Of a stretch of DNA of 64,000 nt, positions 1 through 63,362 are shown piece by piece (position 1 is the first letter of the stretch; every line of letters begins with the position of its first letter). Made by a program: the position numbers and the translations under genes. The notes beneath the pieces were generated by a model, which did no database searches, was not told where the DNA came from, and worked only from the letters and a program-made list of their open reading frames with translations. The DNA is from Dudresnaya verticillata (Eukaryota), in the NCBI GenBank assembly GCA_977862235.1, contig OZ374565.1, positions 1,364,001 through 1,428,000 of the forward strand, given 5' to 3'.

Positions 1-7
1 TAATCAA

Positions 8-607
8 GTGCTAGCCGTCGAGGGAGGCCACGGTGCCGCTACGGGAACGAGCACGGGGGTTACCTTTTCTACCCCGTACTCCTCGCCCCCGCAAAGCGTC
101 CACCCTACTCCGCCCAGGATGTCGCCCGCGCAAGGTTCCCCCTATGGTCGATCTCGCCCGGCGCCTGGCCCTCAACAGCAGCCGAGTCACCGTTACGGAA
201 ATAATTCCCACGATGGGCGAGGACAGCAGCAACCAGCACCTCCGCTACGGGATGAGTCGGATCCTCGGGTCCGACGCCTTTACGGAAGTGGCAACTGTCG
301 CATCTGCCTTTCGCCAGAGCACGTTGTTTGCCCATGGATACAGGACTCCGATCGGGTTAGGCTTATGGAAGAGCGCGAGCGCAACTTCCAGAAGCATTAC
401 CGTGTAGGCCGCAGGTTCGCAGTAGGCACCAGTTCGAATCCACAAGGGAATCGGGGCAAGCCGCATACGCCCCCTCCGCAACGGAATGCCCCGATACTAT
501 CGGTGGAGGACCATGACGGAGTGGAACTTGCAGAATTGCGCGAGCCCATGGAGGCGGATCCGACTGGTGCAACCTTGAATTCGGAAAACTCAAGGGGGGA
601 TGCGTAA
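8..607 (+). CDS. gag: Gag C-terminal part (Pro/Gln-rich, zinc-knuckle-like motif)
   Basis: CRICLSPEHVVCP resembles the Cx2Cx4Hx4C knuckles in the gags at 25949-27547 (CWFCREVGHIMYSCP) and 47130-47714 (CHQCYERGHIAPEC). It lies directly upstream of pol. Confidence 0.8.
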   Translation: MLAVEGGHGAATGTSTGVTFSTPYSSPPQSVHPTPPRMSPAQGSPYGRSRPAPGPQQQPSHRYGNNSHDGRGQQQPAPPLRDESDPRVRRLYGSGNCRICLSPEHVVCPWIQDSDRVRLMEERERNFQKHYRVGRRFAVGTSSNPQGNRGKPHTPPPQRNAPILSVEDHDGVELAELREPMEADPTGATLNSENSRGDA

Positions 608-640
608 GGGCGCCGCCATCCCCGCCTCACGGCGTTCCAC
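583..640 (+). promoter_or_regulatory. Putative -1 ribosomal frameshift signal (G GAA AAC plus downstream stem/pseudoknot)
   Basis: The pol frame is -1 relative to gag and open across the overlap. GGGGATG pairs with CATCCCC, and loop GGGCGCCG can pair with downstream CGGCGTTC using GU pairs. Confidence 0.6.
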
Positions 641-651
641 CTCTCGCGAGT

Positions 652-3600
652 GTGGACCCGCCAGGGGATCGGCGAAATACCGTTACGGAACTCCCATTGG
701 CTTATCAGACCAATGATACTATCTTCTTTATGCAACATCAAAATTACAAGATGCAAATTACCGTGGGACGGACAGATAGCGTGATGCTTCCTTTAATCTC
801 CGTCTTGGACTCTGGCGCTGGGCCCAATCTCATTAGTGCCAGGCGCCTTCCGCGCCAATGGCTCCCACTCATACGCCCAGCAGTCAGTCCGCCATTACGG
901 GATGCGTCTAATCGCGCTATACGCCCTCTTGGTCAGATCCAACTTTTCGTCCGTATCGGAGAGCTCCGTGCTCGCGTCCATTTTCTAGTGGTCGCGAACT
1001 TGGCGGCTCCCTGTATTTTGGGAACTACCTTCATCGACCGATACTTGAAGGCAATCCTCCCTCCGTTACGGAAAGTTGTTTTTCATCATTACCCACCGGT
1101 ATCCCTTGTTGGCCAAGCCAAAATTCCGGAGACGGGAACCACTGCAACCCTACAGCCCTCACCACTTTCTACCGCTACGGTTTCTCAGAAAACTCGTTTA
1201 GCCAAATCTACCCTTATTCCCCCTATGACTCAAACCACCGTAACGGTTAATACCCCCACGGGTGGGTTATGCTTTCTACAAAATCATCCTAAGCCGGCTT
1301 TTAAGCACCTTACGTTAATGGCTAATGGTATTATGGATGTTGTACCTAACAAACCGTTTCGGATCTGGGTCTCTAATTTTTCTAACAAGCCGGTACGGTT
1401 GCCCAAATCTACTGTCGTGGGCCTCGCTACTGCTGCCCCTTCTGCTATTTTTACCGTTGACGGTATACCTCCATTTAAGGAGGGGGGAGGAATTATTCAA
1501 TCATTTAATTCTAACCCTCCCTCCGAAAAGGCCAGCAGCATCTCCCCTCACGACAAGGAAGTAAGCAAACCCGTAACGGAAAATACAAATACTACCGACT
1601 GGAAGGATCAAGTCCAGATCGGCACAGAAGAAGCATCGCTCCGCAAACGGATTTTAACCCTACTCGAGGAATATAAGTCGATGTGGAGTGGCGATCTTGC
1701 CAACATTACAGCTGCCAAGCACCGCATCGAGTTAACTCCCGGAGCGAAGCCAGTATATCAAGCCCCATACCGTGCCGGACATAAGCAGCGAGATCTCGAA
1801 AAGACAGAGATCGATCGCATGCTTTCCGCTAAGGTAATTGAACCAGCCTCATCAGAGTGGGCCAGCCCCGTGGTTTTCGTTCCAAAAAAGGACGGCACCA
1901 TGCGGTTCTGTGTTGACTATAGAAGGCTCAATTCCGTAACGGTTAGGGACTCATATCCCTTGCCCAGGATGGATGAGTGCATAGATTCCCTTGGGGAAGC
2001 TACTGTATTTACCACCCTGGATTGCAATAGCGGATATTGGCAAGTCGAGATTCCGGAAGAGGAAAGGGACAAAACTACCTTCACTAGCCATTTTGGCTTA
2101 TACCGTTTTCGGAGAATGCCATTGGGATTGAAAAATGCACCGGCAACCTTCCAACGGGCAGTGGATATAATCCTGTCTACGGTTGAATGGCAATTTGCCC
2201 TCGTCTACCTAGACGATGCAATTGTCTACTCAAGAACCGTTACGGAACATTTCCACCACTTGAAGGAAGTCCTTACGCTTTTACGATCCGCTGGGGTAAC
2301 GTTGAAATTGTCAAAGCGTGACTTCTTCAACGCGTCTGTACAATACCTGGGGCATGTTATCCGTCCCGGAAAATTAGAAGTGGATAATCGGAATATCCAA
2401 TCCGTTAAGGTCGCGAAGCCGCCGACTAACCAAACGGAATTGCGATCCTTCTTGGGAATGTGCAACGTGTATCGTCGCTTTGTACCCAACTTCGCTCGGA
2501 TTTCAGCACCACTAAATAAGAAAACCGGCAAGGGCTCACCCTTTGAGTTTGGAATATTATCCGACACGGAATATGAAGCCTTCGAGGAACTGAAGAGACG
2601 CCTTATCTCTCCACCTATATTGGCTCTACCCCGTCACGGATATAAATATACGTTGGACACTGACGCATGTGACCACCAAGTCGGCTGTGTCCTTCTGCAG
2701 GAACAACCGAATGGCGATAACCTCCCTATTGGATATTGGAGCCGAAGCCTCACCGATGCGGAGAAAAATTATACGACAACCGAAAAGGAATGCTTAGCCG
2801 TGGTCTGGAGCATGTTAACACTCCGACCCTACCTTTACGGTGACAAGTTTATTCTCCGAACGGATCACGATGCCCTGCTGTGGATGCTGAACCTCGCAGA
2901 CTCATCTGGCCGCCTAGCCAGGTGGAGGCTTCGCCTATCGGAATTTGAATTTGAGGTGCAATACCGTCCTGGAATTAAGCATCAACTCGCCGATGGGATG
3001 TCGCGACTCCGAACGGATGGCGGTGACGATAGACCTTTGGATGAAGAGATACCCTGCTTTATCGCCGAAAATACCGTCGACGGATTATACGAGTATGGAG
3101 TCTATTTAACCGATTGGGCCACATCCCAAGAAACCGCTACGGAAAATAACGTAATATGCGCCGTGGATCCCGCCAGTGGGAGTGCATCCGCCTCCCCTGA
3201 CAAGCCCGACGCAATACCGTCACGGTTTACTGTAATCCAAGAATCCGACGTTAAGGATGAGACAATTACCAGGGAGGAGTTCCTTGAAGCGCAAGCCAGA
3301 GACCCTTCCTGCCGTCTCAAAGCCAATGCAGTAGGCTCCCCTGGATCCCAGTTTGACTATGACCGTAACGGATTCTTGGTACGCAAGTCCCAATTGGATG
3401 GTGCTCTGCAGAAGGTGGTGCCAAGCGAACTCCGTGGACGGGTAATGTATTTATCCCACTACACCCTGATGTCAGGTCACCCAGGCGGAATTAATATGTA
3501 TTATACACTCCGACAGGATTATTATTGGCCTCATATGGCCAACGATGTATTTGAATCCGTTCGGACATGTCGCTCCTGCGTGAAGACAAAGGGAACCCGC

Positions 3601-4908
3601 TTTCGGAATCAAAGGTTTATGAAACTTTTCCCCGCTAGCGGACCCTCGGAGTTTGTCGCTATCGACATTCTCGGGCCACTTCCGAAGACAAAACGGGGTT
3701 ATGTCTACGCCGATCGGTTCTCTAAGCTGACGCGCTATATCCTGTTACGGACAACAACAGCGGTTGTGGTGGCTAACGCCTTTCTGGACTTTTGGGTGTA
3801 CGCCTACGGCGCACCCCAATTTGTCCTAACCGATAACGGACCGCAGTTTACTGCTAAGTTCTTCGACGCGGTGTGTTCCTTACTCGGAGCCAGGCACCTG
3901 CTCACCGCTGCCTACCATCCGCAGACAAATGGGCAAGCTGAGCGATTTAATAAGACAATCGCCCAACGTTTGCGCCATTACGTCGAGGATCATGACTCCG
4001 ATTGGGATTTGTACCTGCAACCGTTGACATATGCGTACAACATGCAGGTACACCGTATCACGGAAACAACGCCATTTGATTTGGTGCTGACACGCCACCC
4101 ATCGGATATTGCTGTACGAGGGGCTCCTGTCGAGCATCAAGAAACCGTTACGGAAGGGCGTATGACCCCGGTGCTACAGAAGCGGAGCACCATGCGCCGT
4201 TTACGGTACGCGCTCCAGACAGCGCGCACGAAGCAGACAGTGGCTCAGCAAAAAGCCAAGGCACTGTTTGACCATAAGGTGCGCTTTAGGCCCATAATCC
4301 GAAGCGGAGATCAAGTCTATGTCGACCGGCCGCCTCATAACTTGCGGCCGGCCGAACGCCGTGCGCGGGACCGATTGGAAGGCAAACCGGACGATGTGGG
4401 CGAGGTGGCTCAGGAAATGAAGAAACTCCTTCCGAGAGCCACGGGGCCTTATGAAGTGGAATCCGCAACGGAACATGTCGTTACAATCCGCAAGGAAGGG
4501 GTATTGATCCCCGTAAGCATCGATCGCATCACGAAGGTTCCGATCGGAGTTGCGGTTCAGCCGGCACCCTTAACAGTGCCGCCTGTCACGCCATCAACCG
4601 TCTACGGAGAAGTAGTGCCACATCCGGAAGGTACTACAGTAGTACCTCCTTCTGAAGGTACTACTCCCTCCGCGACGGAACCACTGCAAGCCGATACGGA
4701 ATATGTGATCGACAAGATTGTCGGTCACCGCGACGAACCTACTTGGATGACGTACAAAGTCCGCTGGTATGGTTACCCTCCGGATCAGGATACCTACGAA
4801 CCCGCCGAGGAATTGCCGCAGAACTTCATCTACCGCTACTGGAAACAAAAACGAAACAGCTCCGCTAAGGGAAAGCCACTGCGACGCCCAGCCAAGGCAC
4901 GCCGCTAA
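652..4908 (+). CDS. pol: Pol polyprotein: aspartic protease, RT, RNase H, integrase, chromodomain
   Basis: VLDSGAGPNLI (protease); RFCVDYRRLN, MPLGLKNAP, YLDD (RT); LDTDAC...EKECLAV (RNase H); HPG..YYWP..CRSC, TDNGPQF, YHPQTNGQAERFN, GPY (integrase); YVIDKIVGHR..YKVRWYGY..DTYEP (chromodomain). About 4 aa appear missing before DRFSK relative to the other integrases here. Confidence 0.96.
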   Translation: MDPPGDRRNTVTELPLAYQTNDTIFFMQHQNYKMQITVGRTDSVMLPLISVLDSGAGPNLISARRLPRQWLPLIRPAVSPPLRDASNRAIRPLGQIQLFVRIGELRARVHFLVVANLAAPCILGTTFIDRYLKAILPPLRKVVFHHYPPVSLVGQAKIPETGTTATLQPSPLSTATVSQKTRLAKSTLIPPMTQTTVTVNTPTGGLCFLQNHPKPAFKHLTLMANGIMDVVPNKPFRIWVSNFSNKPVRLPKSTVVGLATAAPSAIFTVDGIPPFKEGGGIIQSFNSNPPSEKASSISPHDKEVSKPVTENTNTTDWKDQVQIGTEEASLRKRILTLLEEYKSMWSGDLANITAAKHRIELTPGAKPVYQAPYRAGHKQRDLEKTEIDRMLSAKVIEPASSEWASPVVFVPKKDGTMRFCVDYRRLNSVTVRDSYPLPRMDECIDSLGEATVFTTLDCNSGYWQVEIPEEERDKTTFTSHFGLYRFRRMPLGLKNAPATFQRAVDIILSTVEWQFALVYLDDAIVYSRTVTEHFHHLKEVLTLLRSAGVTLKLSKRDFFNASVQYLGHVIRPGKLEVDNRNIQSVKVAKPPTNQTELRSFLGMCNVYRRFVPNFARISAPLNKKTGKGSPFEFGILSDTEYEAFEELKRRLISPPILALPRHGYKYTLDTDACDHQVGCVLLQEQPNGDNLPIGYWSRSLTDAEKNYTTTEKECLAVVWSMLTLRPYLYGDKFILRTDHDALLWMLNLADSSGRLARWRLRLSEFEFEVQYRPGIKHQLADGMSRLRTDGGDDRPLDEEIPCFIAENTVDGLYEYGVYLTDWATSQETATENNVICAVDPASGSASASPDKPDAIPSRFTVIQESDVKDETITREEFLEAQARDPSCRLKANAVGSPGSQFDYDRNGFLVRKSQLDGALQKVVPSELRGRVMYLSHYTLMSGHPGGINMYYTLRQDYYWPHMANDVFESVRTCRSCVKTKGTRFRNQRFMKLFPASGPSEFVAIDILGPLPKTKRGYVYADRFSKLTRYILLRTTTAVVVANAFLDFWVYAYGAPQFVLTDNGPQFTAKFFDAVCSLLGARHLLTAAYHPQTNGQAERFNKTIAQRLRHYVEDHDSDWDLYLQPLTYAYNMQVHRITETTPFDLVLTRHPSDIAVRGAPVEHQETVTEGRMTPVLQKRSTMRRLRYALQTARTKQTVAQQKAKALFDHKVRFRPIIRSGDQVYVDRPPHNLRPAERRARDRLEGKPDDVGEVAQEMKKLLPRATGPYEVESATEHVVTIRKEGVLIPVSIDRITKVPIGVAVQPAPLTVPPVTPSTVYGEVVPHPEGTTVVPPSEGTTPSATEPLQADTEYVIDKIVGHRDEPTWMTYKVRWYGYPPDQDTYEPAEELPQNFIYRYWKQKRNSSAKGKPLRRPAKARR

Positions 4909-6178
4909 TCGTAACGGAAAACAAGCTACTGTCGCTTGCGGTAATCGCAACTCCCCGCGATGTGGCGACCCGGTTACGGGAACTGCTTCTTGTCGACGCC
5001 TGCTACCGTTACGGGATGTCGTTGCTGCTCAAACTGGGGCATACCGCTCCGTCACGGATTTTGCCAGCGTGGGTCGCGTACCCTGCTGATGACGCGACCC
5101 ATTTCCCGAAACTGTACTCTCGTTTTTCCACAATATCGCAGCCGGCGTACTTTGCCCAGGTTCCACCGCTTACGGGGCACTCTTCCGTCACGGAAATCGC
5201 TCTGAACACCCCGTCAGCCACCGTAACGGTGTTCGTCGTCGACCTTTCCGGGAGGGGCACGCCTTTTTCTTGCGATGGGCGGCCGCCCCAGCACGTTTGG
5301 GCCAAGAACGGCCCCTTCCGCGACGGTACAGGAAAAATCCTCGGTCTCATTATTCTTCTCAGAGTCCCGGGGAATATATTAATATTGATGTTAATATTAA
5401 TATTTTCAATATATTATTATATATTAATATTATATTAACACCGTCGCGGGTTGGGTTCATCTCAAGAGGAAGAGGTTCGTGGTGTGTCTCATAAGGGCAG
5501 GAGTGAAGGTATTCGCAAGTAACCGCTACGGATTCCTGAAACACGCCGCCTGCGACGGTTTGTGGCGTATCTAGCCCCCAACTTCTCGCCACCCGAGTCG
5601 GAACAACTTCCGTCAGGAGGTAGCGGGTGTGAAGTACCGTCATCCGATCGGAGTACGAATTGTGCATTGCGGATATGGGAGCGTAATCGACTGCGCGTTC
5701 GAGCAGACCGTTGGGGAAACTTATTCCGCTACGGTGAGATCAACACTCTCCAAGAGTGTTTGCTCCTTTATGTGTGGTAGGACCCCCATGTCGGATTTTT
5801 GCAAATACGGCTATCTGTGAGGTGTCTGGATTGCACTCCCGTTACGGTGAAAGAGGGGTAAGATCTGGCGTCTGCTCCGCTGACACACTGGAGGAACCCG
5901 TTGCGGATGTTTTATGAGGCCGAAGACTGGCGACCAGCCTGGGCAAGTAATCCTTGCGGATGGCGCGCGACACTCGCGTCAAGCGCGATTTGGTTATTAT
6001 CCGTGACGGAAGTCCTGGTCTTGGAGGTGCGTGGGGTTTCCCCACGCATCGAAGCAAACCTTGGCGGCAGTAGAGCAGTTGACGAAGGACCTGGAAAAGC
6101 TGCTCTAATCCGTTGACCGTGCATCGGACCCAAGTCGCAACTCCATCAAGGTGGGCGCACGAGGACGTGGCGCCATTT

Positions 6179-6191
6179 AAGGAGGGGGGTC
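6179..6191 (+). other. Polypurine tract of element A
   Basis: AAGGAGGGGGGTC directly before TGTGGTG, the same pattern as the PPT at 56360-56371. Confidence 0.75.
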
Positions 6192-6847
6192 TGTGGTGAA
6201 GTGAAATTCGGCATCCGAAACGGTGGAAATGCATATAGTGTGGCCTGAACCATTGTGGGATTTGTGCACGTGTATCCGTGTCGGCTTTGGGTGCATTGTT
6301 GTGTGATGGCGTACATTGTTGTGCAGCAGTGGAGCGCACCAACCGCAGCGGAGTATTTGTAGTGTTTATTCTTTATTCTTAGTGAGTATCTGTACAGTAT
6401 GTAGAGTAGTGTGCCAGCCAATGAGAATGCTGTGCATGTCCGTGTCGGAGATTGGGACCAGCAGGGCCGATTCCACCATGGGTCCAGACCACTAGGGTCT
6501 GGCCCCCACGGACCGGACCGCTCGGTGCCACCCTGACTTGTATATCAGGGCGGCACCGCAGCGGCTCCTAAGGTAAACGGGTAAGCAACCTTAGCCCAAT
6601 CCTTTACAGTTTTCCCCGCGCCGAGCCCGTTGCGGTCTACCACCACCACCGTTACGGAGTCCGTCCCGGCACTTGTACCACCCCCTTGTCTGTTGCTTCC
6701 CAATATACGTCTCGGTTAGCCGCTCGCTGTTCTCCCGCCTCGGTGCGAACTGCTCTACCACCCCGTGGAGGTAGTGTTGCTCTCGTCCGTTAAGGAAAGT
6801 CAGGCCAGCTGTCCGTCTCGGAGTTCGTGGGTTTTCACTACACCACA
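6192..6847 (+). repeat. 3' LTR of element A (~656 bp)
   Basis: Begins TGTGGTG and ends CACCACA (7-bp inverted termini). The element-specific CCG-N3-CGG words stop at ~6821. The partner LTR is outside the window. Confidence 0.7.
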
Positions 6848-6852
6848 ACCCC

Positions 6853-9330: not shown

Positions 9331-9332
9331 GA

Positions 9333-20479: not shown

Positions 20480-21253
20480 TGTAGTATTGACGTCGGGTCG
20501 ATCCGATGTCTGATACTTGCTGGTCCAAAGCCGCCACACAGACCCGTCGATGGGTAGCTGTCGGGGTTGGTAGAGCGGTGTCGGCCGCGTGCGCCCCGCA
20601 GGTGCGGATCGACGGCGTCGATGCCGGAGCGCGCACGGGGCGTACCGTACGCGGGTAGGCAGCGGCCGGATCCCAGCTTCCCTGTCGAAGGGCGGCACGA
20701 AGCCGACGGAAAGGAAAAGGAAAGGGGAAAGCCTAGCGAGGCAAGGGGAAAAAGGGAAACCGCCCGCTGGCGTAAGGCAAAGGAATCGAACCCGAAAAGG
20801 CTGGGGGCAAGCTTCAGCGTGAGCTGTTGCTTGCCCGGTTTACTGAGCCGTCGATGGCCGACGGTCTTAAATACCCTACACTATGTACATTACGACTACT
20901 TCTACAGTAGGTGCGCCCCACAACACCAACGCGGGAGGTGTGCGAGCGCGCGCCCATAGACGTGTCGACACGTCCGGGTAACGGTTACCCGTGGGAGCAC
21001 GCGGGGCGTAACGGGCAGCGGCTCTCTCAACGGCTCGATGCCGGAGAGCGTCACAGGGGCGCGCCGTGTGCAGCACGGCGCGCGGCCGCTGCCGGCAGCA
21101 ATGCGGTCGACCGCTAATAATTCAACGAAAAAACTAAGGGCACGCTGCCCAACCACGACTCGCCAGCGGGCGTCATCGTGTGCACCATTACAGTGCGGCG
21201 CTGGCAGCATACCTTACAGCCGCTGCTGATAGTGTGCTGACAGCTATACTACA
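20480..21253 (-). repeat. 3' LTR of element C
   Basis: TGTAGTAT...ATACTACA. About 12 differences from 28435-29208 by eye. The PPT (minus-strand GAGGGAAGGCCG) is at 21254-21265. Confidence 0.96.
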
Positions 21254-21479
21254 CGGCCTTCCCTCAAGCGTGAGCGCCCCGCTCACGGCCGTTGAGGTTT
21301 CCCGGGGCCACGATGGCAACCCCGAGTGGCCGTTGACAGTGATTGGCACGCGCGCCCGTCGACGGTGTATGCGCGTGCCCGCCCGTCTGCGCCGCTGCGC
21401 ATATAAGGATCACTGCGGAGTCGGCGCTGGGGAGGTTGCGGGCATCGCTCTCCACGACCCCCCTTCGCCCACACGCTTC

Positions 21480-24400
21480 AGCACACCAGTGACCGCTGCC
21501 ATGTGTGTGTATTGTGCTACGCCTTCTCCGCCCCCCTTCGCTCGACGCGAGTGCCCACGTCTGCAGTGCCGTGGTCAAGGACCTTATCCACCACGAACCG
21601 CGGGCCGTCGACGGCTTTGGACGCGAGTTCCTCAGTGGTGGGTAAGTATGCGCTGCGCTGCGCAGTATCCTCCCGCAGCGGCGGGGGACAGTAGACGGCG
21701 CGGTCCGCTGCGATGCGTTCGACCAAGCCGCCTCTGTCGATAAACAGCGTGCGCTTGTCGTTAAGCAGCACGCGGTAGGGCCCTATCGCTGGGCTCTGGA
21801 GCTTCTTGGGTTTCTTAACCCCTCGCTCGCGTCGATGAAGACGTAGTCTCCCGCTCGAATGCGGGAGTTGACTTTTCACGCTTGTCGAAGTCTTTCTTGT
21901 AACGCCGCTGCGTTTTATCGAGAGCGCTCGATTCGCTTGCGAAGGCGGCGTCGAGCCGCTTGAGGAAGTCCGCGCGCACGTCCTCACTAGGTTTCGGTCT
22001 GGCCGCTGCCTTATGAAACTTAGTGAACTCCGGCGGCGGCCGGGACAGCACGAGGCTGAAGGGTGTCGTCCGCGTCGTGCGATGGACATGGCAGTTGTAG
22101 GAATACGTCAACGCCGCTGCGTATCGATCCCAGTCGTCCTGGTGATCGTTGATGTAATTCCTCAACGTGGCCATGACGGTCCGGTTGTAGCGCTCAACCT
22201 GACCGTTCGCCTGCGGGTGGTAAGCGAACGTGAACACGTTGTTCAGTCCGAGGTAGCGGCACACTGCCTGAAAGAACTTAGAGGTGAATTGCTTCCCGTT
22301 GTCGGACAACAGAGACCTCGGTGGTCCATAGTGGAAGATCCAAGTCTCACAGAACTCCACTGCGACGTGGTACGCTGTGATGGTGCGCAGTGGCACTACT
22401 TGAGTCAGCTTCGTGAATCGATCCGTCATGAAGAGCAGGAATCGCTTTCCTGACTTCGTCTTGGGCAGCGGCCCTAGGATATCGATTGCGAGCGACTCGA
22501 GCGGCCTCGTGGCCGGGAACAACTTCAACCGATGAAGGGACCTCCGCAAGCGTATGCGGTTCCGGGCACAGTGCCGACAGTTCCGAACTGTCATGGCTAT
22601 GTCCGCTGACATGTGCGGCCAGTAGTAGCTCTCGCGGAGCGTGTAGAACATCCTGTTCTGGCCAGGGTGGCCAGCCAGGAGGGAGTGGTGCGCGAGCGTG
22701 AGAAGCCGCGGCTGTAGCGCTTCGGGCACCACTATTTGCTCCAACGAGGAGATGACGGGGTGACGCCGGCACAAGAGCCCGTCCTAGTCCTCGAAGAAGT
22801 GGCTATCCCGTCGACGGGACTGCCGTGCCAACACTGTTTGGCAAAAATAATCGCGCCGCTGCGCATCCACCAATTCCTCGACGGTTATTGGTGAAGGGAG
22901 CTTCACCGGTTCGACCCGGGTGAGGTCCGTCGGCTCTTGTCTGGCGTCGATGCGGCCAAGGTCGAAGAGGTCGACGTCGTCGCAGTCGTCCCAGGCTTCG
23001 TCGTCGGCAAGCCCCGGTGGCTCGTCGCTGTCCGAGGGCTCCTTGGCTTCGCTGCCAGTGCTGCCCACTGCAGCCGGTCGATCCGGCGCCTTCCGCGTCG
23101 ACGCGTTGGCTTGGGAACGGTCAGCAAGACCGACAGTGCCTTGGGTTCGGTACTCGAGGCACCCTCCTTCTGGCGGTCGACCGCCGGGGGGTTATAGGTA
23201 GGGACGTCGTCGTCAACCTCCTCTTACTGCCGTCCAGGCCTCACCAGGCGGGACAGCGCGTCCGGCACCTGGTGTACCCTACCCGGGCGGTACTCGATCT
23301 GGAAGTCGAATTCCGCGAGTCGTAACCGCCATCGGGTGAGGCGACCGGACGAATCGGTCAAAGACATGAGCCAGCGCAAGGCGTCATGGTCGGTTCGTAC
23401 CGTGAACCGGGTCCCTTCGATGTAGGGACGCAGGGTTGTGATCGACCACACCACTGCAAAGCACTCGCGCTCCGTGGCTGAGTAGTTTCACTCCGCTGAG
23501 CTTAGTGAGTAAGACCAGTACCCAACGGGGTGTAACTGGCCGTCCTCTTGCTCCTGGATCAGGGCGCATCCGAGCTGGTACGCCGATGCGTCCGTGTCGA
23601 GGACGTACTGCTTGCCCTCGCGAGGGGGCTGTAGGATAGGAGGCGATAAGAGTGTCGCTCGCAGTGTCTCGAATGCCTCCAGCGCCGCTGCGCTTGGATT
23701 ATCGAAATCCACATCCGCATCCTTGCGGGTCATATCCGTCAGCGGACGAGCGATCTTCGCGAAGTTCCTGACGAAGCGGCGGTAAACGTTACACGCCCCG
23801 AGGAACGAACTCACCTTCGTTAGGGAGGTCGGGAACTGCGCATGGCGGAACGCGTCGATGCTTGTCTTCGCCATGCGTAGTTTCCCCGGCTCGATCACGT
23901 GACCGAGGTAGTCCACGCGGGACTGGAAGAAGTGGCACTTCTTCAGCTTCAGGGACACGCCGCCCTTGCGAAGCAGAGTCAGCACGCGGTCTAGGTGACC
24001 GACGTGCTCCGCGATCGACCGCGAGAATATGATCACATCATCGAGATAGATCAAACAACACTGCCATCTAACTCCGCTGAGTATGATGTCCAGTAAACGC
24101 TGGAAAGTCGCAGGGGCGTTCTTCAGTCCGAAGGGCATCCGCAGGTAGCGGAACGTCCCTAGGAACGTCGTGAACGTGGTATTATCCCTGTCAGCCGCTG
24201 CGACAGGGATTTGCCAGTACCCTGCGTTACAATCCAGCGTGGAGAAAATGGCAGCGTCGCCAAGACTGTCGATACAGTCATCCATGCGTGGGAGTGGGTA
24301 TGCATCGCTCAGGGTTTTGGTGTTAAGACGTCGATAGTCCACACAAAACCTGACCGTCCCATCCTTCTTGGGCGCCAGAACGACTGGCGATGCCCACTCC

Positions 24401-25950
24401 GACGTGGCGGGTTCGATTACCCCTGCACGCAGCATGGTCTCGACCTCGTTCTGTACGAGCTTCCGCATAGCGGGGCCCTGTCGATAGGGCATTGAGCGAA
24501 TCATCCGCGTGCCGGGTTCCACGTCGATGTGGTGTTGCGTAGCGGCAGTCGTGCCTAGCCTCCCGTCCCACGTGGACTGATGCTTCCGAAGCATGGCGAG
24601 GACTTCTTCGCGGGTGACCTTGTCTTCGATAGACGAAAGGTCCACCTGCGACTCCCAGTCCTCGGCGGACTCTCTTTTCTCCGCCGCTGCGATTACTGCC
24701 CCTTGGAGCTTTGTGGGCTCGGGGCCCCTTGCCATCGACGGCGTGACTGGGGGGTCGTTGCTCCCCTTACCCCTGGGCCGCTGCCATTTATGGGGAAGGG
24801 TGGTGATATTCATCACCCTCCCGAACTCTTTCGCGACGTCGCGGTCCGGGGTTATTAGGGCGACTGGGTTGCGGACCGCATAGCCAACCACGGTACCCTT
24901 CGGTAGGGTCCGGGATTTGTCCGTCCAGTTGCCGAAGATAACCCCGAAGGGTCGCCCCGACTCGATGTCGTGCATGCCGTTGGTCAGTCTCACGCCGTGG
25001 CGGAACTGCAACGAGGGTTTGGGCTCCGTGTGGATTAACCCACTAGCCCCCGACGTCACCGAGACGAGCCTCTGCGAGTAGGCTGGGACAAATACCTGCC
25101 TAGCGAGGCGTATGGTGTGGGTATCGTGATCCCAGTCGATGAGCTCCCGCTGGTGCTTCTTCGACAAACCCTTCGATGGGTTCTTCGGCTGCGTTGCTGG
25201 ACCGGTTCCCTCGCTAGGGTTCCTGCGGCTGAGGATGGGCACCGAGCCTCCTTTCCTCAGCGTCAGCCTTCTCGACTCGACGTCGATTCCGCGCACGTGT
25301 GCGTTGATAAACTGCGTGCCTATCAGCACGTCGACCGCGAGCGTGTCGGCGACGATGAAAGGCACGCGGAACGTCATGTTCCCCAACCTCATCGAGAGGT
25401 GGACGACGCCGGACAGCCTCAGCGGAGTCTTGTCGGCGCCTGCCAGGCGTGGCCCGGAGTCGATCTCTGACGCGTTTTCCTCCCAGCCTGCGGGCAGGGC
25501 ACCTCGAGCGATGAGGTTGTACCTGGAGCCGGTGTCCACCGCGATGGTTTGGGTATCATAACCCGCGGGTCCGCACCGAGGAACCCGGACACTCGGTAAA
25601 TCTCGGAGGACAGGAGGCACACGTACCCATCGGGGGTAGTGGCCGGCTCTGCGTCGATGCATGGATTCCCGGTACCCTCGCGTCGAGCGTCGGGTACCGC
25701 CTGTCCCGCCGTTGGGGAACTGTGACCTTTTCGCCTGGCCTGCCGCTTGCGTCGACGCCGCGACGGCCAGGGTGGTTTGGTACGCGTCGCCCACGACGTC
25801 CCGTCGACCGGGACGTCGTTCGTGTCCTTCGAAGCGCCGCTGCGCTCGACGTGGGGGCTCGCTGCCCCCAACGCCGTCGAATGTGAAAGGGAAGGTGGGT
25901 CTGGTGTTGGAAAAGACGGTGCGCGCGACCGCACGAGCGGCGCCGCCTTT
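21480..25950 (-). pseudogene. pol: pol (PR-RT-RH-IN-degenerate chromodomain) with stops and frameshifts
   Basis: AVDTGSRYNLI, YLDD, LDTDAS, HPG..YYWP..CRHC, SDNGKQF, GPYRV, FVVDKVLDH. Split across ORFs 25419-25934, 23488-26070, 23224-23454, 21815-22774 and 21517-22089. Confidence 0.93.
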
Positions 25951-28367
25951 ATTCTTTTTCCGGATCGACCCGGTCAGAATTATCCTCGGAATCCGAACTT
26001 TCGTGCTCGATTCCGATTGGGTGTTTCGTAACCCCTGAGGCGCCTCGCGTCGATCGCGGAGGCGAGTCAAAAAGGAGAGGGGAATCGCTTCCCTGCCCGC
26101 TGGCTGTCTCTCCCTTGTGCCGCGCGTCGAGCGCTTGCGGAAGCCACTCGTCGGCGGTGAGGCCTGTGTGCTCCTGCACCGTCATAACTGCTCGAAGCAG
26201 TTCCCGGCGCGGGTCAGCCCTCGGAGGCGTCGATGCCTGAGGTTGACGGCCAGCGGGCTCGTCAAAGCCGACCCGCTTATCGCGCAGCAGGAACCGCGGT
26301 GCGTCTAATTGGCGGTACTCGCGGCGTGGGTCTCGACGATCCCCGCGGTACCCCTGCGGCTCTCCGCGGTACCTTGGTGCGCCCATGCGCTGCGGGGGAC
26401 CTCTCGCGTCGAAGCGTCGGTCCCCACCCCGCGGCGTGTCGTAGCGCCGTGCGGGGTTCCTTTTCCTTGCGCCCGCTGGCGCGCGCTCGTCGATGAGCTG
26501 TTGGAGCATATTGCGCGAATGCGGCTGCGTTTCCATTCGATGGTTGCAGTTCGCATAAGCGCAGTACGTCTGCTGTTCCGTCGAGAGGTACGGGCATGAA
26601 TACATGATGTGCCCGACCTCACGGCAGAACCAGCAGATGTACCATCCCTGTCGATCAGGGATGACTGCGCGTTCCATCGCCTCCTGCGTTGGAGTAAGCG
26701 GTGGTATGCGCTTGGGTAGGACCGCGTCGATGCGTCCTGTAATGTCGAGGGTCGCGACGGCCTCGGCCGATCCGGCTGTCGATAGCGCGGGCGCGACCAT
26801 CACGGGTTCGAACCCGTCGGCGTCAGGGTCCATCAGTATTGTGCTGTCGATAGCAACGTCCCCGCTGGGATAGCTTGGTGGGCCCTCGATGAGCAGTGTA
26901 CGGCCGCTTGCCGAGCTGCCACCTGATCTGCCGCACCCCGAGGTGTTCGTAGGCTGCGCTGCCTTTGCCGAACGGGCGCGGTAGGTTGTGCCCTCGCTAT
27001 GGGCAATCCGACGAACGGTACTAAAATTGGTCTGTTCGACCATAGGCAGCTGCGTGACCTTCTCCGCCACTGCGGGTCTTGTCGTGGGCAGCAGGCCCCG
27101 AAGGAACTGATGCGTCAAGTTCTCATCGGAGTAAACGCCGGCGCAGGCGTCCGCATACCCTTCGAGGCGAGTACCAAACTCAAGCTCGGACTCGGCGTCC
27201 CTCTGCTTGGCGGTGGTCAGCCGTTCATGGGCGTCTGCGATGATGTCGTCCGTGACGAACCTCTCGACGAGGGTATTGAACACCGAGGCCCAGCAGGGGG
27301 GGTGCCGCGCTGCGTTGTGCGCACCCCAGAGAACAGGTGACTCGAGTACACCTGCGACGCGGTTCCATCGAGGAACCAGGACACCACACGCGCCGCTGCG
27401 CCCTCGGATAGTCCAACGCCATTGAATGCTTGGCGTAGCTGTCGAAGCACACCAAGCAGGCGAATCGGCTCCTTGCCGTCGAACCTGTCGAGCCGCGGCA
27501 TCAGGGCCTTCATGCGGCTGACAATCTTCGCAGTGTTGCCGCTGCACACCTGCTGTTGATTGTCCCGCTGATCTAAGTCATCGAGACGGTACGAGCGGTA
27601 GTCGATCGCCTTAGCGAACTCTGGCACCAACGTGGTTAAAGGCTCGATGCCTGCCATGAGTGGGCCCCAATGCCAATAGGCAGAGACGGGGCCCTCGTGC
27701 TGTTGGGGGGTCGGTCCCCCCTTTGTGTTTTGCCCGTCGAGGGCTTGTTGGAGCAACCTGGGGTCGACCCCGTAGAACTCATTGGGCTCCCCACTCGGAT
27801 GGTGCGACCCCGCCGCACTCCTCGGTGGAGATGGCGGTGGTGAAGGAAAGCGATGCCGAGCTCGTCGCTCGGCAAGTATGGCAGCGGCCAATTCTTGAAC
27901 TCCACCCGCTGGTTACTGCGGTCGCGGAGGAGAGCGCTGCGCTGACGACGGGCCCGCTGGCGTTGCCGCGTCGGAGCGCGCTCTATCAACTCAACGCGGC
28001 GGCGTAGCTCATCGAGGAGCCCCTGTGAACGGGTTATTCCGTCCTCGATGGACGCCAATGGACCGCGTCGAAGCGTGTCCAGGTCTTGCTGGCCGTCGGC
28101 CTTCGCCGAAGCTATCGAAGCTGTAAGGTGGTCGTACACCTCGGCTAGCGAGTCCATGGTCTCCTCATACAGCAGCTGGAGGTCGGCCACCGAGACCAGA
28201 CTCCCGGAGAGGGCCTTTTGCAGCGCGGCCCTCCGCTCGAGCCTCACATCGTGTAGAGGAGTACCTGAGACGCCGATGGTACTCAGTATTGAGGTGCGTC
28301 GCGTCGCGTCCTCAACTTTTCCGGCAGCGGCCGATGCGGCAGCGGCCGGGTCAGGAGGACTCGACAT
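25949..28367 (-). pseudogene. gag: gag, frameshifted
   Basis: ATG at 28367 just after the PBS; coiled-coil N-terminus; IDYRSYRL, FDGKEPI, AKQRDAESELEFGTRL; knuckle CWFCREVGHIMYSCP. Confidence 0.85.
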
Positions 28368-28415
28368 CCTTTACTTCGATCGCGTCGATGCGAGAAGTAC
28401 TTGGGTCTCGACGAC

Positions 28416-28433
28416 TTCTAGGTCGGGAGACCA
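28416..28433 (-). promoter_or_regulatory. Primer-binding site (tRNA-Tyr type)
   Basis: TGGTCTCCCGACCTAGAA, 1 nt from the 5' LTR. Confidence 0.9.
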
Positions 28434-28434
28434 G

Positions 28435-29208
28435 TGTTGTATAGATGTCGGGTAGATCCGACGTCTGATACTTGCTGGTCCGAAGCCGCCACACAGACCC
28501 GTCGATGGGTAGCTGTTGGGGTTGGTAGAGCGGTGTCGGCCGCGTGCGCCCCGCAGGTGCGGATCGACGGCGTCGATGCCGGAGCGCGCACGGGGCGTAC
28601 CGTACGCGGGTAGGCAGCGGCCGGATCCCAGCGTCCCTGTCGAAGGGCGGCACGAAGCCGACGGAAAGGAAAAGGAAAGGGGAAAGCCTAGCGAGGCAAG
28701 GGGAAAAAGGGAAACCGCCCGCTGGCGTAAGGCAAAGGGATCGAACCCGAAAAGGCTGGGGGCAAGCTTCAGCGTGAGCTGTTGCTTGCCCGGTTTACTG
28801 AGCCGTCGATGGCCGACGGTCTTAAATACCCTACACTATGTACATTACGACTACTTCTACAGTAGGTGCGCCCCACAACACCAACGCGGGAGGTGTGCGA
28901 GCGCGCGCCCATAGACGTGTCGACACGTCCGGGTAACGGTTACCCGTGGGAGCACGCGGGGCGTAACGGGCAGCGGCCCTCTCAACGGCTCGATGCCGGA
29001 GAGCGTCACAGGGGCGCGCCGTCTGCGGCACGGCGCGCGGCCGCTGCCGGCAGCAATGCGGTCGACCGCTAATAATTCAACGAAAAAACTAAGGGCACGC
29101 TGCCCAACCACGACTCGCCAGCGGGCGTCATCGTGTGCACCATTACAGTGCGGCGCTGGCAGCATACCTTACAGCCGCTGCTGATAGTGTGCTGACAGCT
29201 ATACTACA
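28435..29208 (-). repeat. 5' LTR of element C
   Basis: TGTTGTAT...ATACTACA, direct repeat of 20480-21253. Confidence 0.96.
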
Positions 29209-44163: not shown

Positions 44164-44998
44164 TGTGGCGCACGGGGGACCGAGCTTTTATTTCCTCGCC
44201 ATGGGCGTCAAGGGCTTCGTCGACCGACGGACGGTCACCTGGAACGGGTCATTCTCCATTGGCGCGAACACGCCATCGACGATTGGCCTACGGACGCGCG
44301 GGTGCCACCACCCCGCACCGCGCAGGCCGATACACTGTACGGTACAATGCTGTAGAGCGGATCTGGATGACACATCGGGATCAACGAAGTGTAAGCGGGT
44401 TGACTGGCAATTTGGCCCGGATCCCGATCGAATCCGGATCCCACATCCGGATCGGACATCGGGATCCGCTGTAAGGGCAACGCGCCTGTAATACGGTGCC
44501 GATCGCGACCCGAATCCAGATCGCCTACAGTGCCATACAGGCGCGCCTTGGTCAGACGCATGCGCGGACGTACAGTGGCTGCATTGTCCCGGGACCTGTC
44601 AGACGCACCTCCATACGACACGTGTCCCGGGTTCCCGCGCACTACGTCATGCAGCCGCCGTGCCGCGGCCCCATACCATTATTTAGGTACCTCGTCTAGG
44701 ACGTAGCGGTAAAGCCCCGGCAAGCCGGTTTCGAGTCTAGACTTCCCTTCCGCGACGACGCGCACCCTACCGCTTCCCGGAAGCATAAACGTCTACCTCT
44801 GCGTGCTTTCACGTTCGTAACTGCTGCTAACGTGTTTTCCTTTGGGTTTCTTTGTCCCTTTTCTTTTCCGCCTCGGGCGTTTACAGTCCGCCCTAGGCGT
44901 GTTCAACCTGCTCTACCAAGTTCGCCATCAGCGGCTACCCACCGTGCCCCCGAACGGCCCGGAGGTGTTCTCCGTCAGTAGACGACGTTTGCACGGCA
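44164..44998 (+). repeat. 5' LTR of element D
   Basis: TGTGGCG...CACGGCA; roughly 30 differences from the 3' LTR by eye. Confidence 0.95.
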
Positions 44999-45000
44999 AC

Positions 45001-45018
45001 TGGTCTCCCGGCCTAGAA
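45001..45018 (+). promoter_or_regulatory. Primer-binding site (tRNA-Tyr type)
   Basis: TGGTCTCCCGGCCTAGAA, one transition relative to the other three PBS copies. Confidence 0.88.
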
Positions 45019-45039
45019 GCTGCTACGTTGCTACGAACG

Positions 45040-47714
45040 TTAACGTCTGTGAGACGATCGCTCAACCGTCACCCTGATGTTCTGCCCATCATTCACGACG
45101 TTTGCCTACTTCTTCGAAACCATTATGGGCCCATCGCGACCGCCGTTATCGCGTGGATCCTCCCGATGCCCGTATTCGACGCCTGGAACCATGCCGCCGT
45201 CGGGACCGGCCCAACCCATGACGACACGATCTGGTCCTCACGTCAGTCCGGAGATCGCCTCAGCCTTTACGGCACCGCCGGACCATGGCGTGTCACACGC
45301 TCCGCTAAACAGGGTAGAACCTACTCCCCCGCCGAATCCAATCGTCGTTCGTACTTCAGTCCCGGAAGGATCCGCCCTCTGTACCTACCACACGTACATT
45401 GACTCCGCCGACACCGTCCAGGCGGAGAACCAACGCGTCGTAGACGGAACACAAGCCGGCCTTGCCGAGGAACAACAACAACCAACCCCGGCTGCACAGC
45501 CGCAACAACAACAACCGACCGGAACCGTCGAGGACGATGGCAGCCGTTTAGCGCCTTTGGACGTCATCGACGATTCCCCACCCGCGAGGGACTGTTGTCC
45601 CACGCCCCACGGCAGTACCGAATGTTCTCCGGCAGAGCCGTCTGGTCAACGTGGCAACGCAGAGTCGTCACCGGTGCCGCAAAGCCTGGCGAGACAAATT
45701 CCAACACGACCTTCGCCCGCAGCGTCTCCTGTGTCCGCTCGCGTGGGTAATCTTACGATTCCCGCGACCGCATCCGAGAAGTTTGCGTCATCTAGGACGA
45801 TGCGTTGTTAGCATCGTCCTAGATGACGCAAACTAAACGTTGTTAGCGCAATTCGCGGAGATGCTCGATAACAGTGGCGGGGGAATCTGCAGCCGTCTAC
45901 AGACGTTAGAGGAGGGTCGAGACGGAGCCCTACAGGGGTTGCGAACCGACCTCGACCGGTTGATGACGAACCCGGGTACCAACGCCAAACAACCCGCCAC
46001 AGTAACGATCAACTGGCAGTCCGAACTGAGTTCGCGGGAACGTTTCAATCGGCTGGCGACTCGTTTAGAACGATTGGAAACCGCCAAGTTGAGTCAAGGA
46101 CAACCACCCTCGTCTGAGGACGAAAGCGACGACGAAGAACGTCGCCGCCATAAAAGTCGCAAGTATCGCGACCAACGAAAGAAACGCCACGGTCGAAAGA
46201 AGAAACGTCGGCGACGTCACGGGGATTCCTCATATTCCTCCGACTCGTCGAGTGAGGGAGAATCGTCGGGTACTTCAACGGATGACGAAGAGTACCCGAC
46301 CCACGGCGGGGCTGTAAGGCCAAGCGGCAAACGGTTCAAGGGGTTGAAGGAACTATGTCCCTCCAACCCCCTGTTCGCTCAACGCTTGTCGTATCGTACT
46401 TACCGTCTAGCAGATTTCGGGCAAAACGTTCCGGACGCGAAACAGGGAAGATCAAGGACCACATCAAACGTCTGGCGTTGACGATGAAGGATACCGCCTT
46501 CACGGGCGACGACCCGGTCCTGGTCCTTGAGTTCCTTACGCGTTTCGGGGATGAGGCCGATACGCTAGAAATGAGCGAAGCCCAAGCGTTCATAGCGTTG
46601 CCATACTTCTTACGAAGTACGGCGTCAACACAGTTCCGATCCGTCAAGTCGACGTCAACACGCCATCGAGGCGGAGTCTCTTCGTACCCGGAGGCGATGC
46701 AATACCTCCTCCGTACGTACGCAACGCCTTCGGCGATTCGATCCGCCGTACTGGCGTTACGTTCGACGATGCAGAAACGGGTCGAAGATGAAACTGCCTA
46801 CGGCATGCTACTCGCTGGAGATTGCATCCGTTGCGGAAACGTATACCCGACTGGGAGAAGATGACCCTATTTATCGATGGACTCGACCGTCGATACGATC
46901 GCTGGTCGCCCGTTTTCGCGAAGAAACGCCAAGGAAAGAGCTGTCGTTCGAACGATTAGTACACTTCGCATAAGAGGAGGGCGACGCGCACCGCACACGA
47001 AACGTTCGGGCCGGACAGACTTCGGGTCGGCAGGGTATACTGGTACCCGCACAAGCCACTCGCAACGTACGACCCGCTGTCGCGCTCAACCGCCAACTGC
47101 CGAAGCGTCCGAAGCCGGCGGCGCGCGCTATGCTGGCGGAGTCGTCCGTCGAATTCCGAGACATTAGCCACCACGGCGACGATGTCCAAACTCACGCCGA
47201 TGGCGATTTGTACCTGGCCGACGAAAAACTTTCGACACCAACGTCGGCACTGCCGACGGACAGTTACGTCGAAGACGAAGGGCAAATGGATCCCGCTCTC
47301 GCCTTCGGGCGTCCGAACGTACCCGCGCCCCGCGTACCCTATTCGGAATATGCTCCGCACGTCCACCGGGCAAGGCCCGGGTGGCAGGATCGAGGTCCAC
47401 CTCGTCAAGACGTACGAGGACAACTCATTTGCCATCAGTGCTACGAACGGGGCCACATCGCGCCGGAATGCTTCTTACGAATGAGCGACTTCATGAAGGT
47501 CGTCGCCAACTACGAGGGCCTAACGGAGGTCGAGAGGAACGGAGTACTCGCTGATGCGTATAACCGTTGTAAGGAACAAGCCACGAAGGAAGCGGTCCGC
47601 TGCGCCGCGCGCTCATCATCGCCAAGGGCGGGGTTGGCACCGCGCCTAGCCGAACGCCATCCGACGATGCTAAACCGCTACATAGCGCAAACACCGCCGG
47701 AGGCGAAAAACTAG
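45040..47714 (+). pseudogene. gag: gag (with conserved N-terminal extension), frameshifted
   Basis: LSYRTYRL, FTGDDPVLVLEFL, MQKRVEDETAYG, CHQCYERGHIAPEC; ends G AAA AAC TAG. The start is approximate. Confidence 0.8.
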
Positions 47715-55981: not shown

Positions 55982-56371
55982 CGATGAAGGGGGCGCAATC
56001 TGCGCCCCATCGTACTATGGCATAACGTCAACGACGGAAACTTACGAATACGTCACTGACGATCGGGAATTCGCCGTCCCACCGAACAACGTCGTCGACT
56101 AGGAGATACCGCACGCGCCTTGGACGAGGATCGCCGAACATCAACGACGAAGGCAAACGGCCGCTTGGCAACACTGTCACACACGCCTCGTGCGGAGAAT
56201 TGACGTCGGTCGCTAACACGCTGAAAGCGGAACGACCGCTTCGGGCGAGGATGACTGCTCGCACACACGGCAACGCCGAGCAAAAGCACACGCCACAAGC
56301 GGAGTCGCAGCTGATGGAGGTTGCGCGGTACGACTCAGTCGATGGATGTGTTCGCGTCTAAGCGGGGGTCG

Positions 56372-63342: not shown

Positions 63343-63360
63343 TTCTAGGTCGGGAGACCA
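63343..63360 (-). promoter_or_regulatory. Primer-binding site (tRNA-Tyr type)
   Basis: TGGTCTCCCGACCTAGAA, identical to 9313-9330 and 28416-28433. Confidence 0.9.
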
Positions 63361-63362
63361 GA

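What the first reader, a model, noticed from the sequence alone, without database searches (positions are those of the whole stretch)
36..6821. About 45 copies of CCG-N3-CGG in element A, including within open pol
Seen: by-eye count of ~45 (e.g. CCGTTACGG near 190, 680, 1063, 2237, 4145, 5006, 5839, 6649; CCGTAACGG near 1238, 1571, 1934, 3363, 5221; CCGCTACGG near 36, 242, 1172, 3134, 5523, 5725) versus ~2 expected from base composition. There are also many N2/N4 spacing variants. They stop at the inferred LTR end (6847) and are rare in the homologous pol genes of elements C and D. Inference: a spaced palindrome with fixed geometry suggests binding by a protein dimer.
Basis: seen in the sequence. 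Interest (0 to 1): 0.8.

Follow-up and report, generated by a model that had tools for sequence, protein, structure and literature searches.

The report
Family-specific palindrome tags throughout retrotransposons
A jumping gene, probably from a red alga, has one short palindromic word written about every 100 bases along its length, even inside its main protein gene, and neighbouring jumping-gene families each carry a different word; these are likely tiny hairpin tags by which each family recognises its own genome, a role not yet tested.

Summary
Confirmed and extended. Element A, a chromodomain Ty3/gypsy LTR retrotransposon whose closest named relative is from Chondrus crispus, holds 49 CCG-N3-CGG (about 4 expected; consensus WCCGYNRCGGW). 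Pol holds 23, against 2.6 in synonymous-codon shuffles, in all three frames, and the word has left an imprint on the Pol protein. N2 and N4 variants fill gaps between N3 sites, giving even spacing near 97 bp. The sites stop at the LTR end.

Neighbouring families carry their own words. In C, D, E and relative L082 these are about 4-bp stem-loops with covarying pairs, which independent half-sites of a DNA-binding dimer would not give. Best reading (0.45): family-specific mini-hairpin tags read on single-stranded element RNA or cDNA, probably by Gag, like dispersed viral packaging signals. An undescribed antisense accessory protein family occurs in many relatives but was not detected in A. My ten literature searches listed no description; unchecked AI notes of this scan report similar tags in other retrotransposons.

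The parts
36..6821 (.). 49 copies of CCG-N3-CGG (33 of them CCGYNRCGG; 23 WCCGYNRCGGW), plus 8 N2 and 14 N4 variants; 71 sites in all, mean gap 97 bp, longest gap 315 bp
2..607 (+). 3' part of gag (5' part and 5' LTR lie outside the window), with a C-X2-C-X4-H-X2-C zinc-knuckle-like motif at 296-331; 4 N3 sites in 1-516
   Evidence: the knuckle is read directly from the translation, no Pfam hit
517..4908 (+). pol open frame, 1463 aa: protease-like region (LDSGAG, read by eye), RT, RNase H, integrase, chromodomain; 23 N3, 5 N2 and 12 N4 sites
1471..1487 (+). internal 17-nt exact copy of the 3' polypurine tract, between protease and RT (candidate central PPT)
   Evidence: the encoded KEGGG is also in P0002 at this place
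4869..5438 (+). 189-codon open frame overlapping the end of pol; no homolog found, coding status unresolved
4909..6191 (+). 3' internal region with 12 N3 sites and an AT-only stretch at 5408-5438; no detectable member of the antisense accessory family
6173..6191 (+). 3' polypurine tract
6192..6847 (+). 3' LTR, 656 bp, 10 N3 sites (highest density); no site in the next 1.5 kb
20480..29208 (-). element C (comparison): 27 C[AGCG]G and 11 C[CGCT]G stem-loops with variable complementary 4-bp stems, plus ATCGAC-loop hairpins
44164..57207 (+). element D (comparison): CG-x-C-N3-G-x'-CG with covarying x (31/28/11/5 paired forms; mixed forms 3 and 0)
54803..56014 (-). antisense accessory ORF of D; undescribed family, second member at 41427-43892 (-)
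58858..63873 (-). element E (no pol hit): ACC-N5-GGT 19 vs 2.7 and ACT-N5-AGT 9 vs 1.0; mixed forms 0 and 1

Best explanation
Element A carries a palindromic word about every 100 bases from gag through pol to the LTR end, and this word is likely a family-specific mini-hairpin tag (CCG/CGG stem, 3-4-base loop) that an element protein, probably Gag, would bind on the single-stranded genome so that the family packages, pairs or copies its own RNA rather than that of other families. SHOWN: the excess, its limit to the element, its presence in all three reading frames, its imprint on Pol, the gap-filling by N2/N4 variants, and that C, D, E and related elements each have a different word, with covarying stems in C, D, E and L082.
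For: Selection for presence: 23 sites in pol vs 2.6. Pol has 17 places compatible with CCGYNRCGG vs 6.2 in shuffles, z 4.3, the highest of 116 homologous proteins. The 71 N2-N4 sites have gap CV 0.62 vs 0.87, P 0.0004. N2/N4 sites lie 115 bp from the nearest N3 site vs 71 expected, P 0.006, while N5-N12 controls do not (P 0.29). Hairpin nature in the clade: in C the three pairs outside C[AGCG]G are Watson-Crick in 24, 23 and 17 of 27 (expected 11, 9, 7), then chance. D has paired x/x' in 75 of 90. L082 CT-x-C-N4-G-x'-AG is paired in 22 of 26. Mixed forms in E are 0 and 1. Many relatives show 2-5-fold excess of 4-bp arms at spacers 3-7 and none at spacer 0. C's words are sense-biased (27:11, P 0.014; 25:5, P 0.0003), and wobble exceeds A-C mismatch on the loop-bearing strand 14:3, P 0.013, a post hoc pooling. 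In A, spacers 0 and 1 are absent (0 and 0 vs 3.3 and 4.0), all 8 N2 sites have an extra outer pair (5 expected), CCA-N3-TGG is a minor paired word (8 vs 2.4, P 0.007 uncorrected, mixed forms at chance), and pol folds more stably than shuffles (mean z -1.0 sense, -1.25 antisense, 29 windows). A, C and L082 have tags without a detectable accessory ORF, whereas Gag is general. Precedent: STNV has up to 30 dispersed, often marginally stable AXXA stem-loops (PMC5699041, passages).
Against: A itself shows no covariation outside the core: flank pairs 17 vs 17.7 expected, inner pairs 21 vs 21.7. Real flanks fold no better than swapped flanks. The 3-bp stem is marginal: mean hairpin probability 0.25 with RNA energies, above 0.5 in 13 of 49 sites. 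A's spacer preference is symmetric, with no significant strand bias (P 0.11-0.28). A has little general hairpin excess at spacers 4-8. G-U wobble variants of A's core are not enriched. Between copies of three hairpin-rich clades, changes in stems show no G-U preference (74:90 vs 555:569) and no excess of double compensatory changes (P 0.5). C also has 11 hairpins in the antisense sense, which packaging of sense RNA would not need. B's integrase region carries TGGCCA with unpaired flanks, not a hairpin. Even spacing was found in A only, not in D, E, B or L082, and was borderline in C (P 0.04-0.06). No binding, expression or copy-level data exist for A.
Confidence: 0.45

Rival explanations
1. 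The word is a double-stranded DNA dyad bound by a dimeric protein of the element lineage, supplied in trans if needed. The protein would coat the integrated element about every 100 bp and keep it from being silenced, as VANC does for VANDAL transposons.
For: A's consensus WCCGYNRCGGW is symmetric, with independent half-sites. Spacing is even at roughly nucleosome scale, and density is highest in the LTR. An antisense accessory ORF lies 3' of pol in 22 of 26 ingroup loci with at least 2.5 kb downstream and in 0 of 5 outgroup loci. The family has 915 clusters and a confident model, pLDDT 91. TGGCCA in B is a non-hairpin palindrome. VANC binds family-specific motifs whose density matters (PMC5735166, passages).
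Against: The accessory family is not detectable in A, C or E. Its presence does not predict palindrome strength (median 3.3 vs 2.9, P 0.18), and L013, L019 and L020 have the ORF without hairpin excess. Independent half-sites cannot give the covariation seen in C, D, E and L082. The core domain has near-zero net charge and no conserved Cys/His set. VANC motifs are non-palindromic, non-coding and arise by tandem repeats, whereas A has no motif-bearing tandem array.
Confidence: 0.27
2. The palindromes are a by-product of mutation: fold-back or template switching during reverse transcription perfects short inverted repeats, with family-specific sequence bias and no function.
For: Stems in relatives are Watson-Crick only and strand-symmetric in bulk counts. 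Mixed forms are missing. No GNRA or UUCG loop preference is seen.
Against: Stems stop at about 4 bp (C: chance at the fourth outer pair; D: fifth pair 5 vs 17 expected). A's flanks are not perfected. C's loop is fixed while its stems vary. Gap-filling and even spacing in A are not expected from mutation alone.
Confidence: 0.1
3. The sites are bound by a host transcription factor, and the element has accumulated them to be expressed.
For: Spaced CCG/CGG dyads resemble transcription-factor sites (recalled: the fungal Zn2Cys6 factor Leu3 binds CCG-N4-CGG). Sirevirus LTRs carry palindromic CGG-CCG repeated motifs proposed as regulatory (PMC2829016, passages).
Against: Every family in the window has a different word. 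Sites run through pol at the cost of amino-acid changes. Relatives' words are covarying stems.
Confidence: 0.06
4. A methyltransferase with biased repair creates and keeps the word, as proposed for HIP1 in cyanobacteria (recalled).
For: An N6/N4 methyltransferase-like ORF lies at 15893-17365. Most words contain CG.
Against: That ORF is 9 kb outside A and interrupted by a stop. The word is confined to A (0.47/kb elsewhere). Variable spacers and covarying stems do not fit one enzyme site.
Confidence: 0.04

Closest known systems
Multiple dispersed packaging signals of ssRNA viruses (STNV AXXA stem-loops, MS2; PMC5699041 and PMC6281560, passages read)
   Same: Many small, degenerate, often weakly stable stem-loops spread over coding and non-coding regions. 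C's fixed loop on variable stems is the same design.
   Different: Here the host element is an LTR retrotransposon. In A, D and E the family identity sits in the stem rather than the loop, both strands carry stems, and coat-protein binding is untested.
VANC anti-silencing proteins and their motifs in Arabidopsis VANDAL transposons (PMC5735166, passages; PMC13547354, passages)
   Same: A short motif highly enriched in one transposon family and different in sister families, and an accessory gene with a conserved domain plus low-complexity tails in many relatives.
   Different: VANC motifs are non-palindromic, mainly non-coding and amplified by tandem repeats in a DNA transposon. Here the words are dispersed palindromes or hairpins inside pol, A has no detected accessory gene, and the accessory family has no Pfam or fold match.
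Sirevirus repeated motifs (PMC2829016, passages)
   Same: Palindromic CG-rich spaced dyads, up to 32 copies per LTR retrotransposon, varying between families.
   Different: Those have CGG...CCG orientation, belong to Ty1/copia of land plants, and cluster in LTRs and near env. Here the orientation is CCG...CGG, in Ty3/gypsy, spread through pol.
Chromodomain-bearing Ty3/gypsy LTR retrotransposons
   Same: RT-RNase H-integrase-chromodomain order, PPT and TG...CA LTR.
   Different: The dispersed tags and the antisense accessory family were not found described in my searches.

Membership tests
Chromodomain Ty3/gypsy LTR retrotransposon | RT, RNase H, integrase in that order with a C-terminal chromodomain | tested here: met
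   Pfam RVT_1 455-615, RT_RNaseH 710-810, Integrase_H2C2 968-1025, rve 1049-1135, Chromo 1396-1443
Chromodomain Ty3/gypsy LTR retrotransposon | PPT followed by an LTR with TG...CA ends | tested here: met
   PPT 6173-6191, LTR 6192-6847; the 5' LTR lies outside the window
Dispersed packaging signals | many short stem-loops across coding and non-coding regions | tested here: inconclusive
   met for C, D and L082; for A the stem is 3 bp, mean pairing probability 0.25, flanks not covarying
Dispersed packaging signals | signal specific to the genomic (sense) strand | tested here: inconclusive
   C sense-biased, 27:11 and 25:5; A not significant, P 0.11-0.28
Dispersed packaging signals | bound by the cognate capsid or Gag protein and needed for packaging | not testable with these tools
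   no binding or assembly assay available
VANC/VANDAL anti-silencing system | family-specific motif enriched in its own element only | tested here: met
   7.2/kb in A, 0.47/kb in the rest of the window, at most 2.7/kb in 81 related loci
VANC/VANDAL anti-silencing system | motifs in non-coding tandem repeats | tested here: not met
   23 of 49 sites in pol; the tandem repeats found in A (4611-4664, 5373-5438) hold no site
VANC/VANDAL anti-silencing system | element encodes the accessory binding protein | tested here: inconclusive
   none detected in A's 3' region; A's 5' part is outside the window
VANC/VANDAL anti-silencing system | accessory protein has the VANC/MAIN fold | tested here: inconclusive
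   no Pfam hit above noise in 53 members; fold searches gave no clear match
VANC/VANDAL anti-silencing system | binding causes loss of silencing marks | not testable with these tools
   no epigenomic data
Sirevirus repeated motifs | Ty1/copia element with CGG-CCG palindromes clustered in LTRs | tested here: not met
   Ty3/gypsy order; CGG-Nn-CCG not enriched, 1-5 per spacer; sites dispersed

The most novel reading that the evidence does not exclude
A whole clade of red-algal Ty3/gypsy retrotransposons writes a family barcode into its genomes as dozens of 3-5-bp stem-loops whose stem or loop letters turn over from family to family. A rapidly diverging element protein, Gag or an antisense-encoded accessory domain with no known fold, reads the barcode to tell self from sibling families. 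Element A is the extreme case, in which the barcode is one evenly spaced word that has reshaped its own Pol protein.
Probability: 0.3. Interest if true: 0.85.

Novelty: new variant of a known kind. Interest (0 to 1): 0.7.

Why it matters
How LTR retrotransposon families sharing one genome pick out their own RNA or DNA is largely open; known signals are single elements near the 5' end (recalled). Here each neighbouring family has a countable, family-specific word, written even into conserved pol. That makes self-recognition directly testable by synonymous recoding and by cross-family binding assays, such as A's protein against C's or D's word. It would extend dispersed packaging signals, or VANC-like anti-silencing, to a new element class and lineage. 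It also exposes a 915-cluster accessory protein family with a confident model and no structural match.

Tried and rejected
No whole genome is held, so other copies of A could not be compared. No sequencing run was listed; that is no evidence on expression.

Rejected explanations for the count: codon or peptide repeat (three frames); tandem amplification; base composition; structured RNA family (no Rfam match in 1-8000 at E<=1; no tRNA).

Search for a reader in A. The 4869-5375 frame gave no Pfam hit, no Atlas hit and no homolog among longer proteins (weak evidence). The accessory-family HMM (175 rows) and hhalign found nothing in any of six frames; the best tblastn hit, E 1.5e-4 over 150 queries, was treated as noise.

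Accessory family. Foldseek PDB, BFVD and VIA searches gave no clear match (best Z 2.4, rmsd 6.2, 130 aligned), which does not prove a new fold. The Atlas gave no usable hit. The homodimer job gave no answer.

Strand and spacing tests. An apparent G-U preference in relatives' stems vanished after restricting to G:C pairs and one reference per clade. N3 sites alone are not evenly spaced (P 0.45), and the grouping with N2/N4 was chosen after seeing the data. Strand bias in A is not significant overall; CCG-N3-AGG 12 vs its reverse complement 4 gives P 0.08. A viral-contig pattern scan gave 120 loci, screened only for motif density; the densest were loci under 700 bp selected by the pattern itself, and they were not pursued.

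Literature. Searches listed no description of such tags or of the antisense ORF in red-algal elements. Subscription journals are mostly missing, and no supplements were read.
Full report
OBSERVATION. Window 1-6846 holds 49 exact CCG-N3-CGG, and the other 57 kb hold 27. Shuffles of the same 6.8 kb that keep 2-, 3-, 4- or 5-mers give means of 3.4, 4.2, 4.3 and 6.4, with a maximum of 16 in 300 each. The spacer histogram peaks at 3 (N0-N6: 0, 0, 8, 49, 14, 4, 1). The opposite and direct orientations are not enriched. The wider consensus is W-CCG-Y-N-R-CGG-W: 33 sites match CCGYNRCGG against 0.9 expected, and 23 match the 11-mer against 0.2. Counts by part are gag end 4, pol 23, 3' region 12, LTR 10, next 1.5 kb 0.

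THE ELEMENT. Pol is one frame of 1463 codons with RT, RNase H, integrase and chromodomain. A polypurine tract precedes an LTR at 6192-6847. The 5' end is outside the window and no genome is held. Among 120 listed homologs the closest named one is from Chondrus crispus (P0022, 60% identity). A groups with it and with P0002 at 97% SH-aLRT in a quick, unfinished-search tree of 87 RT-RNase H rows. A red-algal host is therefore inferred, not shown.

THE WORD IS SELECTED. Within pol, synonymous-codon shuffles give 2.6 sites (maximum 10 of 2000) against 23 seen, and 23 of 34 places where the protein allows the word use it. Sites fall in all three frames. The protein has moved towards the word: 17 places are compatible with the strict form against 6.2 after residue shuffling (z 4.3, the highest of 116 proteins tested; the others average -0.15, sd 1.1), giving repeats such as TVTE, TATV and SATE. 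N3 sites alone are randomly spaced (P 0.45). N2+N3+N4 together (71 sites, a grouping chosen post hoc) are evenly spaced: mean gap 97 bp, CV 0.62 against 0.87, P 0.0004, and within pol alone P 0.004. N2/N4 sites lie further from N3 sites than chance (115 against 71 bp, P 0.006), while N5-N12 controls do not. The 782-bp N3 gap in integrase contains six N2/N4 sites.

EACH FAMILY HAS ITS OWN WORD. An unbiased dyad scan found different words in the other elements of the window. D has CG-x-C-N3-G-x'-CG with x paired to x' in 75 of 90 cases: 31, 28, 11 and 5 against about 1 each, with mixed forms 3 and 0. E has ACC-N5-GGT 19 against 2.7 and ACT-N5-AGT 9 against 1.0, with mixed forms 0 and 1. C has CAGCGG 27 times on its sense strand and 11 times on the other. 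The three flanking pairs are Watson-Crick in 24, 23, 17 of 27 and in 11, 11, 8 of 11, then fall to chance, so this is a 4-bp stem with a fixed AGCG loop. ATCGAC behaves likewise. B's integrase region has TGGCCA (13 against 3.1) with unpaired flanks.

RELATED LOCI. I fetched 81 loci (the latter the best 80 of 603 in a partial scan) and 7. None reaches A's density of A's word; the highest of the 81 is 2.7/kb. Many show a general 2-5-fold excess of 4-bp inverted arms at spacers 3-7 and none at spacer 0, for example L027 at N4, 130 against 25. Others (L013, L019, L020, L047, L033, most outgroup loci) do not. L082 has CTC-N6-GAG 25 against 2.6, with CT-x-C-N4-G-x'-AG paired in 22 of 26. Between copies of three hairpin-rich clades, stem pairs change less often than isolated pairs (0.40-0.51 against 0.59-0.66 events per pair), but show neither G-U preference nor excess double changes.

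HAIRPIN OR DNA DYAD IN A. For a dyad: symmetric spacer and flank preferences without covariation, no strand bias in a flip test, no benefit from real flanks, a weak stem (pairing probability 0.25 RNA, 0.48 DNA), and little general hairpin excess. For a hairpin: spacers 0 and 1 absent and 3 and 4 favoured; N2 present only with an extra outer pair (8 of 8, 5 expected); a minor paired word, CCA-N3-TGG (8 against 2.4); pol windows more structured than shuffles, with a residual of -0.44 +/- 0.19 when sites are held fixed; and, above all, the clear stem-loops of C, D, E and L082. The evidence within A is individually weak. My preference rests on parsimony across the clade.

A CANDIDATE READER. D carries an antisense ORF 3' of pol (54803-56014), with a second member at 41427-43892. 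Homologs lie antisense 3' of pol in 22 of 26 ingroup loci with at least 2.5 kb of downstream DNA, and in 0 of 5 outgroup loci; 12 of the 81 loci with short pol matches were dropped first. This is one clade, not independent events. The family has 915 clusters at 50% identity, no Pfam hit above noise in 53 members, and a 265-residue mostly helical model at pLDDT 91. It is not detectable in A, C, E, L082 or L086, and its presence does not predict palindrome strength (P 0.18). It is therefore a lead, not A's reader.

COMPARISON. STNV carries up to 30 dispersed AXXA stem-loops, several of them unstable alone, bound collectively by coat protein (PMC5699041, passages; the idea is reviewed in PMC6281560, passages). 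VANC binds family-specific motifs in non-coding tandem repeats (PMC5735166, passages) and resembles MAIN (PMC13547354, passages). Sirevirus LTRs hold palindromic CGG-CCG motifs (PMC2829016, passages). A fails the non-coding tandem-repeat criterion of VANC and the location and class criteria of Sirevirus motifs; packaging-signal membership is untested. Ten searches listed no report of this in red-algal elements; other papers in those listings were seen as listings only. Unchecked AI notes of this scan describe evenly spaced palindromes in a Podospora element and dispersed mini-hairpins in algal copia elements. I did not test them, and they are not evidence.

VERDICT. The feature is real, strong and selected, and it is part of a clade-wide pattern of family-specific tags. 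Odds: hairpin tag read on single-stranded element nucleic acid 0.45, DNA dyad with an element-lineage dimer 0.27, mutational by-product 0.10, host factor 0.06, methyltransferase 0.04. New variant of a known kind; interest 0.7.

Noticed in passing
window 1471-1487 and 6173-6189: Exact 17-nt copy of the 3' polypurine tract inside pol, between protease and RT; the encoded KEGGG is also present in P0002. Candidate central PPT.
   Followed up: partly
window 54803-56014 (-), 54022-54813 (-), 41427-43892 (-); about 25 loci such as L002:7371-9716 (-): Undescribed antisense accessory protein family of this retrotransposon clade: 915 clusters, no Pfam hit, confident mostly helical model without a clear PDB match, low-complexity tails.
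   Followed up: yes
window 20480-29208 (-): Element C has 27 AGCG-loop and 11 CGCT-loop hairpins. The two loops are complementary, and TCGA loops are self-complementary, so loop-loop pairing is possible (untested).
   Followed up: partly
window 15893-17950 (+): N6/N4 DNA methyltransferase-like ORF (DPPY motif; Pfam N6_N4_Mtase E 1e-4; weak PDB methyltransferase hits) interrupted by one stop.
   Followed up: partly
window 58858-63873 (-): Element E has 99.8% identical LTRs and no pol hit, and its 20 nt next to the 5' LTR equal C's. Probably non-autonomous, yet it carries its own word, ACC/ACT-N5-GGT/AGT.
   Followed up: partly
window 8400-10200 (-): LTR and gag-start segment 68-75% similar to D's, sharing D's word (6 + 9 paired forms, 0 mixed); the adjoining integrase region instead carries TGGCCA.
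   Followed up: partly
window 5408-5438 and 52617-52636: AT-only stretches 3' of pol in both A and D; in D the stretch lies between pol and the end of the antisense ORF. Possible two-way termination signals.
   Followed up: no
window 33306-35456 (-): 716-codon ORF with DUF7869 (E 2e-38).
   Followed up: no
window 45780-45834 and 8523-8566: Long inverted repeats in gag of D (24-bp stem) and at the matching end of the D-like segment of B.
   Followed up: no
L082-L088: Contigs titled as a bacterial MAG carry these retrotransposons, so they are probably host-alga DNA binned in; L082-L084 have CTC-N6-GAG-type hairpin words.
   Followed up: partly
L071: Outgroup element with a one-strand word, GTTCCCG 11 vs 0.4 expected.
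   Followed up: no
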